A stretch of DNA of 64,000 nt, from the NCBI RefSeq assembly GCF_050920415.1, contig NZ_CP169309.1; one strand, 5' to 3'. The notes beneath the pieces are model-generated. The model was not told the DNA's origin. It made no database searches and saw nothing but the letters and a program-made list of their open reading frames with translations. Positions 3,650-64,000 of the stretch are shown piece by piece (position 1 is the first letter of the stretch; every line of letters begins with the position of its first letter). The stretch is from Escherichia coli (GTDB lineage Bacteria; Pseudomonadota; Gammaproteobacteria; Enterobacterales; Enterobacteriaceae). The position numbers were made by a program, and so were the translations under genes.

Positions 3650-3775
3650 GTGCACTCAGTATCTACTGAATGAATACGGTTTCAGACATCGGCACCATAC
3701 GAAGTAAAGTGTACTGTAAGCTGATTGCAGGCTAGCGTATCCTGATTAGTAAAGGCACACTAAAGGAATAGCTTG

Positions 3776-5059
3776 ATGCAACTTACCAACGAAGAACAAG
3801 CACAGATTGCTCGTATAAAAGAAAAAATCCCACGCATTGCCGCACTGGATCCTGAATGTAAGTTATTCGGTTCTGAAGGTTGGAAATATCAATGGCCGAA
3901 GCCTGCCAGCGAGGCGGAAATAGCTTCCTGGGAGAAAAAACATAGCGTCACTTTGCCACGGGAATATCGAATTTTTCTTCGCTATATCGCTAATGGCGGT
4001 CCGGCACATGCCTACGGTCTTGAATCTTTAGGCGGTACAGATATTTATGGCGATATAACAAAAGAAAGCCCTGTACCGCTTTATATGACGCAGCAGGATG
4101 TTGATGTGTTGAATGCTGGCCGTACAGAAGATGATGAAGAATATAGTTTTTTTGACGGCGCATTGACCATTCTCACCCTGGGATGTACTTATGATATTTG
4201 CCTGGTGGTGACGGGGCAGTATCGCGGAAGGTTAATGCTGACTGATGGTGATGAAGATTATCCGTTTGATTTTATATATGATAAAAATTTCCTCAACTGG
4301 TATGAACGCTGGCTGGACGATTTTATTGCTGGCATGAGTATGAAGGGTTTCGATAGAAGTTTGCCAGGAACGCAAATTCAACTGCGTGAGTGGTTTTTAA
4401 CTGAGAAAATCCCGGATTTACGTAGATCCATTTTATTCTCGCTATGCCGTTTTCCACAGATAGAACCCGAAACTTTTGCCCTTTGGGAACATGTTTGCCG
4501 CACAGAGAATGATAAAGAATTGTGTGAAGAGGCATTCACAAGATTACGCCAAAAAAAAGGTTCTTGTGCTGCAGATATTTTTCGACTCTATTTTACAATG
4601 CCAGGTGAATTACGTGATATTGCTATTAAAGATCTCCGTTTTGCCTGTAGAGATAGTGTGGTGAATATTGAGGATTATATTCATTCACTGTTAATAATAA
4701 TGCCTGAACTTGACGATGACACTCTATCCTCAGCTGTCTTTGCTATACGAGAAACAGAGTATAATAAATATGATACTTTTCTGCCGCTTCTCGAACGTAT
4801 CACTGATGACCGTCAGCAAACATTATTGTGGGCGATGAGTAAGGCGCCTGATTTCAATGAAAGCCGAGGATTCGTTGAGTTGGTATTACCGCTTTTTGCA
4901 TCATCAAAGATGGAGAATGTAAGGAAGGCTATTTTGTTGCTCATTGAAGTTAAAGATAATCGTATTCCACCATTGGTTGATGAAGCTGCAACTCGTTTCC
5001 CTGAACTGACCATTTTACGAGAAAACTACTATCTCAGGACGTGGGGACATAAGCCATAA
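3776..5059 (+). CDS. Accessory protein: N-terminal SUKH-1/SMI1-KNR4-like domain plus about 230-residue helical-repeat C-terminal region (putative immunity-type protein)
   Basis: ATG 3776 with AAGGA 8 nt upstream (track start 3773 is TTG). Motif WEKKHSVTLPREYRIFLRYIANGG and later DGALTILTLGCTYDICLVVTG...FDFIYDKNFLNWYERWLDDF resemble the SMI1/KNR4 pattern. AT-rich with rare codons; absent at this position in K-12. Confidence 0.8.
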   Translation: MQLTNEEQAQIARIKEKIPRIAALDPECKLFGSEGWKYQWPKPASEAEIASWEKKHSVTLPREYRIFLRYIANGGPAHAYGLESLGGTDIYGDITKESPVPLYMTQQDVDVLNAGRTEDDEEYSFFDGALTILTLGCTYDICLVVTGQYRGRLMLTDGDEDYPFDFIYDKNFLNWYERWLDDFIAGMSMKGFDRSLPGTQIQLREWFLTEKIPDLRRSILFSLCRFPQIEPETFALWEHVCRTENDKELCEEAFTRLRQKKGSCAADIFRLYFTMPGELRDIAIKDLRFACRDSVVNIEDYIHSLLIIMPELDDDTLSSAVFAIRETEYNKYDTFLPLLERITDDRQQTLLWAMSKAPDFNESRGFVELVLPLFASSKMENVRKAILLLIEVKDNRIPPLVDEAATRFPELTILRENYYLRTWGHKP

Positions 5060-5096
5060 ATTAATGGTTCAGAAATGATCTAACGCGGAGAAAAAT

Positions 5097-5627
5097 ATGA
5101 TCAGGGAACATATTCAGCAAGCGATAAATAATAGGTTAGCATTTGATGGCCCATTCAATGTTGTTCCTGAACCTGCAAGCACTGCGTTTGATGGCCGGAT
5201 CCCGACATTGAAAAACGGTGTCTGGCAGAAGGCCAGCCCTATGTTGCAGGCGCGTTTTGCACATTGTGGACGTTGGTTAAGCGCTACACATGGAAGCTGG
5301 CTAAGTATAAGTGACATGGAAACGCTTTGGCAGGAACACATAGAAGATACGTTTCTTGATGAAATCAAAATGAATGCTGTAGCTTCAAGTGATAATTGGG
5401 ATAACCATGCCTTGGGACTATTTCGTTCTCATCGCCTGTCACTTTTTGCCGGTAGTGATTACAGTTATGAAATGGTTTTTCTCCTTTGGCTAGATAGTAC
5501 CGTTGAGCCAGAGGTCTGGGTTTATGACTGCAATGGGGAATCACGTTATAAAGATCTTAATGATTACCTGAATGCATATATTAATGATGACGTAAGCGCC
5601 TGTGAGCGCTCCTGGCGAGTAGAATGA
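5097..5627 (+). CDS. Accessory hypothetical protein (176 aa) whose C-terminal half resembles a SUKH-type immunity fold
   Basis: ATG 5097 with GGAG 6 nt upstream; C-terminal LFAGSDYSYEMVFLLWLDSTVEPEVWVYDCNGESRYKDLNDYLNAYIND resembles the SMI1/KNR4 C-terminal pattern. Stop overlaps the next start (ATGA). Confidence 0.6.
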   Translation: MIREHIQQAINNRLAFDGPFNVVPEPASTAFDGRIPTLKNGVWQKASPMLQARFAHCGRWLSATHGSWLSISDMETLWQEHIEDTFLDEIKMNAVASSDNWDNHALGLFRSHRLSLFAGSDYSYEMVFLLWLDSTVEPEVWVYDCNGESRYKDLNDYLNAYINDDVSACERSWRVE

Positions 5628-6250
5628 ATAGCCCCCCTTGCCCCTTTGATCCACAAACCGCACATTACCTCGGTACAGTGCAAATCCACTACAGCCCAAC
5701 CACCTTCAACGCTGCCGTTAAGCATTATACCTGTTACATTAAAAAGCGTTTTAAAGGGTTTAAATGGGGAATTGGAACCGCTGGCTTATTGGCTATATTG
5801 CCCATGATCCCACAATGGTTGAAACCTTCTCATGACTTTAAACTCAACGCAATCAGTACGTTAATTCTTCTATTAATGTTGCCACTCCTCTTATCAATGT
5901 TCCTGTTAATCAGCAGAAGAATTAACGATTTTAAGTCAAAAACAAAGCAAGTTACTTTTACGAAACCCGTGCGTTATGCGTTTTATTTCGAGGGGATTGT
6001 TTTTTATGAATCTCATCAGCAGGGCATACTTCGCTGGGAAGATTTGTATAGCATTGACTATGAAGAAGATTATTTGTGGCTTTTTCTGCATTTACCGAAG
6101 AGTTTTCCCAGAGAAGCGACGAAAGCGTTTTGCGATATTTTCATTCCCGCCAGCGCGATAAAAGCGCAGCCTGAACTGGATACGTTTTTTCGTGAAACAC
6201 GCCACTCGCTGGATTATCTGTTTGTCCCGTTTAATTCTGACAGAAAATAA
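5624..6250 (+). CDS. Accessory membrane protein, YcxB-like architecture (two adjacent TM helices then a soluble C-terminal domain)
   Basis: ATG 5624 overlaps the upstream stop. Hydrophobic segments WGIGTAGLLAILPMIPQWL and AISTLILLLMLPLLLSMFLLI, followed by FYFEGIVFYESHQQGILRWEDLYSIDYEEDYLWLFLHLPK. Confidence 0.6.
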   Translation: MNSPPCPFDPQTAHYLGTVQIHYSPTTFNAAVKHYTCYIKKRFKGFKWGIGTAGLLAILPMIPQWLKPSHDFKLNAISTLILLLMLPLLLSMFLLISRRINDFKSKTKQVTFTKPVRYAFYFEGIVFYESHQQGILRWEDLYSIDYEEDYLWLFLHLPKSFPREATKAFCDIFIPASAIKAQPELDTFFRETRHSLDYLFVPFNSDRK

Positions 6251-6283
6251 AAAATCCCCCGTATCTGGTGAAACGGGGGATTT
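6245..6283 (-). terminator. Intrinsic terminator of pckA
   Basis: Perfect stem AAATCCCCCGT (6252-6262) / ACGGGGGATTT (6273-6283); on the pckA strand the hairpin is followed by TTTTTTATTTT. Confidence 0.8.
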
Positions 6284-6302
6284 CGTCGCTTAACTTATCG
6301 GA

Positions 6303-56871: not shown

Positions 56872-56965
56872 CGATATGCGCCGAGATTTTTTAAGCTAGT
56901 GAGTACACGGCTGCAGAATTCCGCTACAATCTGCGCCACTATTCTTCCCATGCTCAGGAGATATC

Positions 56966-57556
56966 ATGAAAGTAGCAAAAGACCTGGTGGTCAGCCTGGC
57001 CTATCAGGTACGTACAGAAGACGGTGTGTTGGTTGATGAGTCTCCGGTGAGTGCGCCGCTGGACTACCTGCATGGTCACGGTTCCCTGATCTCTGGCCTG
57101 GAAACGGCGCTGGAAGGTCATGAAGTTGGCGACAAATTTGATGTCGCTGTTGGCGCGAACGACGCTTACGGTCAGTACGACGAAAACCTGGTGCAACGCG
57201 TTCCTAAAGACGTATTTATGGGCGTTGATGAACTGCAGGTTGGTATGCGTTTCCTGGCTGAAACCGACCAGGGTCCGGTACCGGTTGAAATCACTGCGGT
57301 TGAAGACGATCACGTCGTGGTTGATGGTAACCACATGCTGGCCGGTCAGAACCTGAAATTCAACGTTGAAGTTGTGGCGATTCGCGAAGCGACTGAAGAA
57401 GAGCTGGCTCATGGCCACGTTCACGGTGCGCACGATCATCACCACGATCACGACCACGACGGTTGCTGCGGTGGTCATGGCCACGATCACGGTCATGAAC
57501 ACGGTGGCGAAGGCTGCTGCGGCGGTAAAGGTAACGGCGGTTGCGGTTGCCACTAA
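56966..57556 (+). CDS. slyD: FKBP-type peptidyl-prolyl isomerase SlyD with His/Cys-rich metal-binding tail
   Basis: 196 aa MKVAKDLVVSLAYQVRTEDGVLVDESP...; C-terminus HGHVHGAHDHHHDHDHDGCCGGHGHDHGHEHGGEGCCGG. Confidence 0.96.
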   Translation: MKVAKDLVVSLAYQVRTEDGVLVDESPVSAPLDYLHGHGSLISGLETALEGHEVGDKFDVAVGANDAYGQYDENLVQRVPKDVFMGVDELQVGMRFLAETDQGPVPVEITAVEDDHVVVDGNHMLAGQNLKFNVEVVAIREATEEELAHGHVHGAHDHHHDHDHDGCCGGHGHDHGHEHGGEGCCGGKGNGGCGCH

Positions 57557-57571
57557 TACCGAAAAAGTGAC

Positions 57572-57600
57572 AAAAAAGCGGGGAATCCCCGCTTTTTTTA
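57572..57600. terminator. Bidirectional intrinsic terminator between slyD and slyX
   Basis: AAAAAAGCGGGG-AAT-CCCCGCTTTTTTT. Confidence 0.8.
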
Positions 57601-57604
57601 CGCC

Positions 57605-57823
57605 TCAATAATGTGGCGGTGGCGTTTCTTCAGCCTGCGACGCGATGTTCGACGGCTGGCTGGCTTTTAGCTTCTCGGTCAGCAGACGCAGATGATCGCG
57701 CAGTTTCGCCATCTCCATTTCATGAGCGGTCACCGTGACGTTCAGTTCTTCAATGGTGATTTCCTGAAAAGCCAGTCGGCTCTCCAGCTCTGCCAGGCGT
57801 GCTTCCAATGATAAATCCTGCAT
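57605..57823 (-). CDS. slyX: Protein SlyX
   Basis: 72 aa [28 protein letters not shown]... Confidence 0.92.
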
Positions 57824-61366: not shown

Positions 61367-61852
<486 letters not shown>

Positions 61853-61936
61853 TCCCTTCGGAGTTTTAGTCACCAGGCGGGCGCTTCCAGTAAGCAGCCC
61901 GCTTTGGGCTACTTAAATTGAACGCCTAAAAGATAA

Positions 61937-64000
<2,064 letters not shown>

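What the first reader, a model, noticed from the sequence alone, without database searches (positions are those of the whole stretch)
57413..57556. SlyD histidine/cysteine-rich C-terminal tail
The last 45 or so residues are almost entirely His, Asp, Gly and Cys (HGHVHGAHDHHHDHDHDGCCGGHGHDHGHEHGGEGCCGGKGNGGCGCH), a metal-binding tail known to bind Ni and Zn. Its length and composition vary between strains through repeat slippage, so it is a natural strain marker and a determinant of metal-handling phenotype. The antisense frame (56954-57553) forms a 199-codon open frame solely because of the repetitive GC-rich codons.
Basis: partly seen in the sequence, partly recalled or inferred. Interest (0 to 1): 0.2.

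Follow-up and report, generated by a model that had tools for sequence, protein, structure and literature searches.

The report
Known nickel-binding tail of SlyD
This is the well-studied histidine- and cysteine-rich nickel-binding tail of the E. coli chaperone SlyD; it is ordinary, and more than 99% of complete E. coli genomes carry it at the same length.

Summary
Window 56966-57556 (+) is E. coli slyD (196 aa), identical to PDB 2KFW. Its last 48 residues are 87.5% His/Gly/Asp/Cys. The quoted peptide starts at 57410, not 57413. The tail is the known disordered metal-binding domain, which binds up to 7 Ni(II) and is needed for [NiFe]-hydrogenase maturation.

The strain-marker claim is only weakly true. 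slyD is single-copy in 5425 of 5426 complete E. coli genomes. The repeat-prone stretch is full length in about 99.3% of them. All 20 variable sites among five full-length alleles are synonymous.

Rare in-frame length alleles do exist: 183, 192, 194, 201 and 209 aa. Each one checked at DNA level lies in 57431-57491 and is bounded by 3-11 nt direct repeats, as slippage predicts. They occur in roughly 0.4-0.7% of genomes. Between genera the tail varies a lot (25-69 aa).

The antisense explanation is wrong. That ORF spans the whole gene in codon register and is open because slyD uses no TTA, CTA or TCA codons. Of its 199 codons, 151 lie outside the tail. It is a by-product of codon bias, not a gene. 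The feature is already known and of low interest.

The parts
56966..57556 (+). slyD coding sequence (196 aa plus TAA stop). A Shine-Dalgarno AGGAG lies at 56956-60.
   Evidence: ORF list. Identical to PDB 2KFW over residues 1-196. NCBIfam equivalog NF008008, 426.8 bits against a cut-off of 174. Pfam FKBP_C. Annotated slyD in 5425 genomes.
56966..57409 (+). Folded body, residues 1-148: the FKBP prolyl isomerase domain with the inserted IF chaperone domain.
   Evidence: Matches solved SlyD chains 2K8I (1-166) and 8G01 (1-154). Pfam FKBP_C covers residues 4-78. The body is identical in every E. coli length allele examined.
57410..57553 (+). His/Cys/Asp/Gly-rich disordered metal-binding tail, residues 149-196.
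   Evidence: Composition. Described in the literature as an unstructured tail that binds up to 7 Ni(II) (PMC7055735).
57410..57424 (+). Conserved HGHVH motif (His149, His151, His153), the single high-affinity Ni/Zn site shared with tail-less SlyDs.
   Evidence: HGHVHG is conserved at the start of nearly all the Enterobacterales tails examined; exceptions are garbled or frameshifted database entries. The review describes the HGHxH site and the SlyD155 truncation.
57431..57491 (+). Indel hotspot in the His-Asp run. Every natural E. coli length allele examined at DNA level maps here.
   Evidence: Placement of the -39, +15, -12 (two forms) and -6 (two forms) nt alleles, each with 3-11 nt flanking homology.
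57442..57452 (+). Left copy of the 11-nt direct repeat CCACGATCACG.
   Evidence: It matches 57481-57491 exactly at an offset of 39 nt. The 183-aa allele deletes exactly one 39-nt repeat interval. The 209-aa allele (P0149) duplicates the same 13 residues; this was compared at protein level only.
57481..57491 (+). Right copy of the 11-nt direct repeat CCACGATCACG.
57431..57459 (+). Weak tandem array with a 12-nt period (CACGATCACCAC), 2.4 copies, 88% matches.
   Evidence: TRF score 44. The two -12 nt alleles each remove one unit.
57572..57598 (.). Perfect 13-bp hairpin flanked by A and T runs, probably a bidirectional intrinsic terminator shared by slyD (+) and slyX (-).
   Evidence: Inverted repeat I1 is 100% complementary. 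The terminator scan hit it on the minus strand, and the symmetric A6/T6 arms serve both strands. Some strains have an extra G at 57579.
56954..57553 (-). Antisense 'shadow' ORF of 199 codons, in codon register with slyD. It is a by-product, not a gene.
   Evidence: Register 0 with no TTA/CTA/TCA sense codons. No Pfam or NCBIfam match. A synonymous CTA breaks it in strain EC21Z-137. Between genera, the sense protein stays 91-99% identical while the antisense translation is only 64-80% identical.

Best explanation
This is the canonical C-terminal metal-binding domain of E. coli SlyD. SlyD is a cytoplasmic FKBP-type prolyl isomerase and chaperone.

How the tail works, according to published experiments on the identical protein:
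- Residues 149-196 are intrinsically disordered and carry 15 His, 6 Cys and 7 acidic residues.
- They chelate several Ni(II) ions (up to 7 per protein, sub-micromolar affinity) and also other divalent metals.
- The tail acts as a nickel reservoir and stimulates nickel release from HypB, feeding the HypB-HypA route that inserts Ni into [NiFe]-hydrogenase large subunits.
- Metal binding reversibly inhibits the isomerase.

What the DNA shows:
- The His-Asp codons (CAC/CAT, GAC/GAT) form short imperfect direct repeats.
- Replication slippage or unequal exchange between these repeats occasionally yields in-frame deletions or duplications of 6 to 39 nt.
- These alleles stay below about 1% in E. coli.
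- Among the full-length alleles compared, the tail shows synonymous changes only, which indicates purifying selection.

The antisense ORF is a passive consequence of slyD's codon usage, which is typical of highly expressed genes.

Shown here: identity, composition, allele spectrum and frequency, flanking repeats, and the substitution pattern. Taken from the literature: metal binding and the role in hydrogenase maturation. Inferred: slippage as the mutational mechanism.
For: Identity:
- 196 of 196 residues match PDB 2KFW.
- NCBIfam equivalog NF008008 scores 426.8 bits, and Pfam FKBP_C matches.
- The neighbourhood kefB-yheV-slyD-slyX-fkpA is the same as in K-12.

Function:
- The PMC7055735 review describes an unstructured tail that binds up to 7 Ni(II) and inhibits the PPIase.
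- It reports that the tail is essential for hydrogenase maturation, stimulates Ni release from HypB, and that truncated SlyD155 binds one Ni but fails in vivo.
- PMC11198818 describes the C-terminal domain as nickel-chelating and supplying hydrogenases.
- PMC13397214 names SlyD as an IMAC contaminant that is removed by truncating the tail.

Selection:
- All 20 variable sites among five full-length alleles are at codon position 3.
- The chance of 8 out of 8 tail changes being synonymous is 2e-6.
- The motifs HGHVHG and GGCGCH are conserved across nearly all clean Enterobacterales tails.

Slippage:
- Seven alleles were checked at DNA level, all in frame, all within 57431-57491 and all flanked by 3-11 nt repeats.
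- A 13-aa deletion (183 aa) and a duplication of the same 13 residues (209 aa) both exist, as expected for reciprocal products of one repeat pair.

Frequency.
Against: Nothing contradicts the identification.

Limits of the evidence:
- Metal binding was not and cannot be tested with these tools.
- Slippage is inferred from junction homology and was not observed directly.
- The count of variant alleles (about 22 to 39 of 5426) is bracketed from BLAST coverage and identity bands, not enumerated genome by genome.
- Five of the -12 nt records derive from a single isolate.
Confidence: 0.97

Rival explanations
1. The tail is a hypervariable, slippage-driven tract, like a VNTR or contingency locus. 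On this reading its length differs commonly between strains, so it marks strains and tunes metal handling.
For: At least 12 distinct length forms occur in E. coli and Shigella sequences (183, 192 x5, 194 x3, 196, 201 and 209 aa). Some are seen on hundreds of contigs in the 15-billion-protein collection: the two 192-aa forms on 693 and 454, one 194-aa form on 330, the 183-aa form on 174 and the 201-aa form on 103. The 183- and 192-aa alleles each occur on different SNP backgrounds, which suggests recurrence. The 13-aa deletion and matching duplication both exist.
Against: Between 5387 and 5395 of 5426 complete genomes (about 99.3%) keep the standard hotspot length. All 39 evenly spread gene hits are exactly 591 nt. 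The tandem array is weak, with 2.4 imperfect copies. The amino-acid sequence is invariant across divergent full-length alleles. No phenotype data exist for the natural alleles. Recurrence on different backgrounds would itself make them poor lineage markers.
Confidence: 0.05
2. The antisense ORF at 56954-57553 (-) is a real overlapping protein-coding gene.
For: It is 199 codons long and begins with GTG. The in-register antisense frame is also fully open in the Salmonella, Citrobacter, Klebsiella and Serratia slyD genes.
Against: Openness is expected. slyD has only 19 Leu and Ser codons at risk, and its codon usage resembles that of highly expressed genes. The probability of an open frame is 0.56-0.70 using fusA/rpsL/rpsG codon usage, against 0.056 using the window average. 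Fourteen other in-register antisense ORFs of at least 150 aa lie in this window, and fusA carries one of 528 aa. A change that is synonymous in the sense strand (CTA, codon 97) truncates the antisense ORF in strain EC21Z-137. Between genera, 31 of 33 to 53 of 67 differences fall on sense codon position 3. Sense identity is 91-99% while antisense identity is 64-80%. There is no Pfam or NCBIfam match.
Confidence: 0.01
3. The tail sequence in this window is distorted by an assembly error in the repeat.
For: Frameshifted SlyD tails occur in public assemblies (P0010, P0012, P0046, P0072 and P0106), so errors or frameshift mutations do happen at this tract.
Against: The window's tail translates to the canonical sequence solved as 2KFW. 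Its DNA is at least 99% identical in 584 other complete genomes over the 80-nt core. The gene is 100% identical in MFDS1022581.
Confidence: 0.01

Closest known systems
E. coli K-12 SlyD (UniProt SLYD_ECOLI, PDB 2KFW, RefSeq WP_000861334.1)
   Same: The protein is identical over all 196 residues, including the tail, and the gene neighbourhood is the same.
   Different: The DNA differs only at synonymous sites. The window and K-12 differ at 9 of 591 nt, five of them in the tail.
SlyD orthologues of other Enterobacterales (Salmonella, Citrobacter, Klebsiella, Serratia, Yersinia, Dickeya and others)
   Same: The FKBP/IF body is 81-99% identical. The tail starts with LxHGHVHG and ends with GGCGCH or a close variant, with His-Asp/His-Gly runs and CC pairs in between.
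   Different: Tail length ranges from 25 to 69 residues (median 47), with 8-19 His and 3-9 Cys. Some species pairs differ by single HD, GH or DH dipeptide units, for example Serratia liquefaciens at 200 vs 202 aa and Yersinia ruckeri at 193 vs 195 aa.
Tail-less SlyD (Thermus thermophilus, PDB 3CGM) and the engineered E. coli SlyD155
   Same: They share the FKBP and IF domains and the HGHxH single metal site.
   Different: They lack the extended His/Cys tail. SlyD155 binds one Ni but cannot support hydrogenase maturation in vivo.
Other His-rich nickel storage or delivery tracts (H. pylori SlyD, Hpn and Hpn-like proteins, the UreE C-terminus, the HypB His-rich N-terminus)
   Same: They are disordered tracts rich in His, with or without Cys, that bind several Ni(II) ions and serve nickel-enzyme maturation.
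   Different: They are unrelated in sequence and sit on different carrier domains. The UreE tail is dispensable for urease maturation, whereas the SlyD tail is required for hydrogenase maturation.

Membership tests
SlyD (FKBP-type PPIase/chaperone/metallochaperone, NCBIfam NF008008) | Full-length match to the SlyD equivalog model above its curated cut-off | tested here: met
   426.8 bits against a cut-off of 174, covering residues 1-196 of a 196-position profile.
SlyD (FKBP-type PPIase/chaperone/metallochaperone, NCBIfam NF008008) | FKBP prolyl isomerase domain interrupted by an insert-in-flap (IF) chaperone domain | tested here: met
   Pfam FKBP_C matches residues 4-78, a partial match as expected for a split domain. 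The sequence is identical to the solved SlyD chains 2KFW, 2K8I and 8G01, which show both domains.
SlyD (FKBP-type PPIase/chaperone/metallochaperone, NCBIfam NF008008) | C-terminal His/Cys-rich tail beginning at the HGHxH motif | tested here: met
   Residues 149-196 are 87.5% H/G/D/C and carry HGHVH at 149-153.
SlyD (FKBP-type PPIase/chaperone/metallochaperone, NCBIfam NF008008) | Conserved chromosomal context yheV-slyD-slyX-fkpA | tested here: met
   The order is the same in the window and in every E. coli locus fetched. yheV-slyD-slyX is also seen in Salmonella, Citrobacter, Klebsiella and Serratia.
SlyD (FKBP-type PPIase/chaperone/metallochaperone, NCBIfam NF008008) | Binds several Ni(II) ions and supports [NiFe]-hydrogenase maturation | not testable with these tools
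   This was established experimentally for the identical protein, according to the PMC7055735 review.
Hypervariable tandem-repeat (VNTR or contingency) locus | Several near-perfect tandem repeat units | tested here: not met
   TRF finds only 2.4 copies of a 12-nt unit at 88% matches, score 44. The remaining repeats are dispersed and 63-79% identical.
Hypervariable tandem-repeat (VNTR or contingency) locus | Length polymorphism common among strains of one species | tested here: not met
   About 99.3% of 5426 complete E. coli genomes keep the standard length. Indel alleles make up about 0.4-0.7%.
Overlapping antisense protein-coding gene | Purifying selection on the antisense reading frame, with the frame kept intact across strains | tested here: not met
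   Substitutions fall on sense codon position 3. Antisense identity is 64-80% against 91-99% for the sense frame. One E. coli strain has a stop in the antisense frame.

The most novel reading that the evidence does not exclude
The rare, recurrent in-frame length alleles of the tail might not be neutral slippage debris. These include 183, 192, 194, 201 and 209 aa forms, with a deletion and a duplication of the same 13-residue HDHDGCCGGHGHD unit. They could be locally selected variants that change the number of Ni(II) sites, and so tune nickel storage or hydrogenase maturation in particular lineages, for example the 192-aa form in Shigella dysenteriae and S. boydii.
Probability: 0.08. Interest if true: 0.35.

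Novelty: already known. Interest (0 to 1): 0.08.

Why it matters
It matters little for discovery. The tail is a textbook example of a disordered nickel reservoir attached to a chaperone, and it is a familiar nuisance in His-tag purification.

Three points from this check may be useful:
- In E. coli the tail's protein sequence is almost invariant, so it is under strong selection. It should not be used as a strain marker.
- A small, well-defined indel hotspot (57431-57491) bounded by short direct repeats produces rare in-frame alleles. It also appears as frameshifted tails in some public assemblies, which annotators should expect.
- Long antisense ORFs over highly expressed genes, such as slyD here and fusA in the same window, follow from codon bias and should not be called as genes.

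Tried and rejected
- Lab-evolution mutations. I checked whether slyD mutations reported in evolved E. coli (PMC3446313) were tail slippage events. They were not: one nsSNP, one 1-bp deletion and two deletions of about 7 kb.
- Prior description of natural alleles. A literature search for natural slyD tail polymorphism found nothing specific.
- Primary papers. I tried to read the papers on E. coli SlyD metal selectivity and the Ni reservoir (PMC3253374 and PMC3253375). Neither is held. Zn(II) binding by the E. coli tail therefore rests on my own knowledge of Kaluarachchi et al. 2011, which is cited in the reference list seen. The review's statements cover H. pylori and Thermus SlyD. PMC4192464 added nothing.
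- Exact allele counts. The search tool lists at most 60 records, so I could not enumerate all variant genomes. I bracketed the count from coverage and identity bands using four differently designed queries.
- Antisense ORF as a gene. Considered and rejected.
- Assembly error. Considered and rejected.
- Structure prediction. Not run, because an identical solved structure exists.

Full report
**What is there.** The window carries a 591-nt ORF at 56966-57556 on the plus strand, preceded by AGGAG at 56956-60. Its 196-aa product is identical over its full length to PDB 2KFW, full-length E. coli SlyD. It also matches the truncated SlyD structures 2K8I and 8G01. It scores 426.8 bits against the NCBIfam SlyD equivalog NF008008, whose cut-off is 174, and it hits Pfam FKBP_C. 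The neighbours are kefB, yheV, slyX (convergent) and fkpA, exactly as annotated in K-12 and other strains. The whole 64-kb window differs by only 6 SNPs from E. coli MFDS1022581.

**Checking the observation.**
- The quoted 48-residue peptide is present. It starts at His149 (57410), one codon before the stated 57413, and ends at His196 (57553), with TAA at 57554-57556.
- Of its 48 residues, 42 are His, Gly, Cys or Asp. The first 148 residues have 21.6% of these, giving a binomial P of 3e-22.
- Tail GC is 61.8%, against 53.4% for the rest of the gene.
- At DNA level the tract is only weakly repetitive. TRF reports a 12-nt period with 2.4 copies at 57431-57459 (score 44). The repeat finder reports dispersed 19-24-nt direct repeats of 63-79% identity.
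- A perfect 13-bp hairpin with A and T runs at 57572-57598 looks like a bidirectional terminator shared with slyX.

**What the tail does (from the literature, not tested here).**
- The review PMC7055735 describes the E. coli tail as unstructured and rich in His, Cys, Asp and Glu. It binds up to 7 Ni(II) with sub-micromolar affinity and reversibly inhibits the PPIase activity.
- The same review says the tail contributes to nickel storage and stimulates Ni release from HypB. [quoted passage not shown] The truncated SlyD155 keeps one Ni site (His149, 151, 153) but fails in vivo.
- The review also states that the tail is variable among SlyDs.
- PMC11198818 notes that the nickel domain is typical of gamma- and epsilon-proteobacteria and absent in many other lineages. 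It also notes that slyD was discovered as a host gene needed for phiX174 E-mediated lysis.
- PMC13397214 records SlyD as a standard IMAC contaminant that is removed by truncating this tail.
- Zn(II) binding by the E. coli tail rests on my own knowledge of Kaluarachchi et al. 2011. The paper is cited in the reference list seen but is not held.

**Testing the strain-variation claim within E. coli.**
- slyD is single-copy in 5425 of 5426 complete genomes. Every hit is at least 95% identical and covers at least 80% of the gene. All 39 evenly spread hits are exactly 591 nt.
- Strains whose tail-region DNA differs from the window by up to 5% still carry the same protein accession, WP_000861334.1.
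- Among five full-length alleles, all 20 variable sites (12 in the body, 8 in the tail) are at codon position 3 and synonymous. For the tail alone, 8 synonymous changes out of 8 has P = 2e-6 if changes were random.
- So among the full-length alleles compared the tail's amino-acid sequence does not vary, and it is under purifying selection. In the wider collection, rare single-residue variants exist (Gly to Ser on 293 contigs, His to Gln on 3).

**Rare length alleles do exist.** By querying with the weakest hits and with variant alleles I recovered the following:
- a 183-aa allele (-39 nt) in 2 complete genomes;
- a 201-aa allele (+15 nt tandem duplication) in 1 complete genome;
- two different 192-aa alleles (-12 nt) in 15 records, 5 of which derive from one isolate;
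- two different 194-aa alleles (-6 nt) in 3 records.

The larger protein collection adds a 209-aa allele and further 192- and 194-aa forms, including the 192-aa form in Shigella dysenteriae and S. boydii. The 209-aa allele duplicates the same 13 residues that the 183-aa allele deletes. Contig counts are 693 and 454 (the two 192-aa forms), 330 and 26 (the two 194-aa forms), 174 (183 aa) and 103 (201 aa). The canonical form saturates the 1000-contig counter.

**Mechanism of the length changes.**
- Every allele examined at DNA level is in frame and lies within 57431-57491. Each deletion has 3-11 nt of flanking direct-repeat homology, and the +15 nt duplication has 5 nt beyond the duplicated unit.
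- The 39-nt event lies exactly between two copies of CCACGATCACG at 57442 and 57481.
- Junction homology, together with a deletion and a matching duplication of one unit, is the expected signature of replication slippage or unequal exchange.
- The 183- and 192-aa alleles occur on different SNP backgrounds, which suggests recurrence.

**Frequency.**
- An 80-nt query confined to the hotspot matched at least 80% of its length in 5395 of 5426 genomes, and only 8 matches were below 95% identity.
- A query built from the 192-aa allele found 22 records that fit it better than the standard allele does.
- The variant fraction in complete genomes is therefore about 0.4-0.7%.
- With one allele above 99%, the tract is a poor strain marker. 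No data link the natural alleles to a phenotype.

**Variation between genera.** Among 93 clean tails from the 120 best Enterobacterales homologues, length runs from 25 to 69 residues (median 47). His counts are 8-19 and Cys counts 3-9. The ends are conserved (LxHGHVHG at the start, GGCGCH at the end). Some species pairs differ by single HD, GH or DH units. This agrees with what the review already states.

**The antisense ORF.**
- The ORF at 56954-57553 (-) is in exact codon register with slyD and spans the whole gene plus 12 nt upstream. Only 48 of its 199 codons lie in the tail.
- In that register, antisense stops arise only from the sense codons TTA, CTA and TCA, and slyD has none. Thirteen of its 14 Leu codons are CTG, and Leu plus Ser make up 9.7% of residues against 17% for the window's genes.
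- With window-average synonymous usage the frame would be open with P = 0.056. With the usage of rpsL, rpsG and fusA, P is 0.56-0.70.
- The window holds 14 other in-register antisense ORFs of at least 150 aa, and fusA carries one of 528 aa.
- The frame is also open in the Salmonella, Citrobacter, Klebsiella and Serratia genes. However, strain EC21Z-137 breaks it with a synonymous CTA.
- Between genera the differences fall on sense codon position 3: 31 of 33 (Salmonella), 31 of 32 (Citrobacter), 44 of 48 (Klebsiella) and 53 of 67 (Serratia). Sense identity is 91-99% and antisense identity 64-80%.
- The antisense product matches no Pfam or NCBIfam family.
- The ORF is a by-product of codon bias. 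The explanation 'solely because of the repetitive GC-rich codons' is wrong.

**Assembly error.** The tail translates to the solved sequence, and its DNA recurs in hundreds of independent complete genomes. Frameshifted tails do occur in some public assemblies, reading into the +1 frame ORF at 57366-57611. Read-level support for this window could not be checked.

**Verdict.** This is an already known feature of a well-characterised protein, and its interest is low.

Noticed in passing
window 3650-6300: A three-gene islet sits between envZ and pckA. It encodes a 427-aa SMI1/KNR4 (SUKH-1) family protein (3776-5059) and two hypothetical proteins (5097-5627 and 5624-6250) with no Pfam match. Only 19 of 5426 complete E. 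coli genomes carry it. From my own knowledge, SUKH proteins often act as immunity proteins in polymorphic toxin systems. This is rarer than anything in the slyD finding.
   Followed up: partly
window 61913-63499 (-), inside fusA (61949 to the window end): A 528-codon antisense ORF lies in exact codon register with fusA, which has no TTA or CTA and only 2 TCA among 683 codons. It is the same codon-bias artefact as over slyD, only larger.
   Followed up: yes
window 57366-57611 (+1 frame relative to slyD): Several public SlyD entries from E. coli and relatives (P0010, P0012, P0014, P0046, P0072, P0106) are frameshifted within the His-Asp run. They read into this alternative frame (...TITVMNTVAKAA...[12 protein letters not shown]) and run through the terminator. 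They may be real frameshift mutants or sequencing errors; this was not resolved.
   Followed up: partly
window 57579 (terminator stem 57572-57598): Some E. coli strains (CE2050, 19AR1724) carry an extra G in the slyD/slyX terminator hairpin. This explains the 222-nt rather than 221-nt matches.
   Followed up: yes
L001 and L002 (183-aa alleles); L010/L013 and L011/L014 (192-aa alleles): Identical deletion alleles sit on different synonymous-SNP backgrounds. This suggests independent recurrence of the same slippage event, or recombination.
   Followed up: partly
window 61382-61852: rpsG encodes a 156-aa S7 protein here. From my own knowledge, K-12 has a 179-aa form caused by a stop-codon change, so this is consistent with a non-K-12 strain.
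   Followed up: no
E. coli genome collection: One of the 5425 slyD matches lies on a record labelled as a plasmid, and one complete genome has no slyD match at all. Neither was examined.
   Followed up: no
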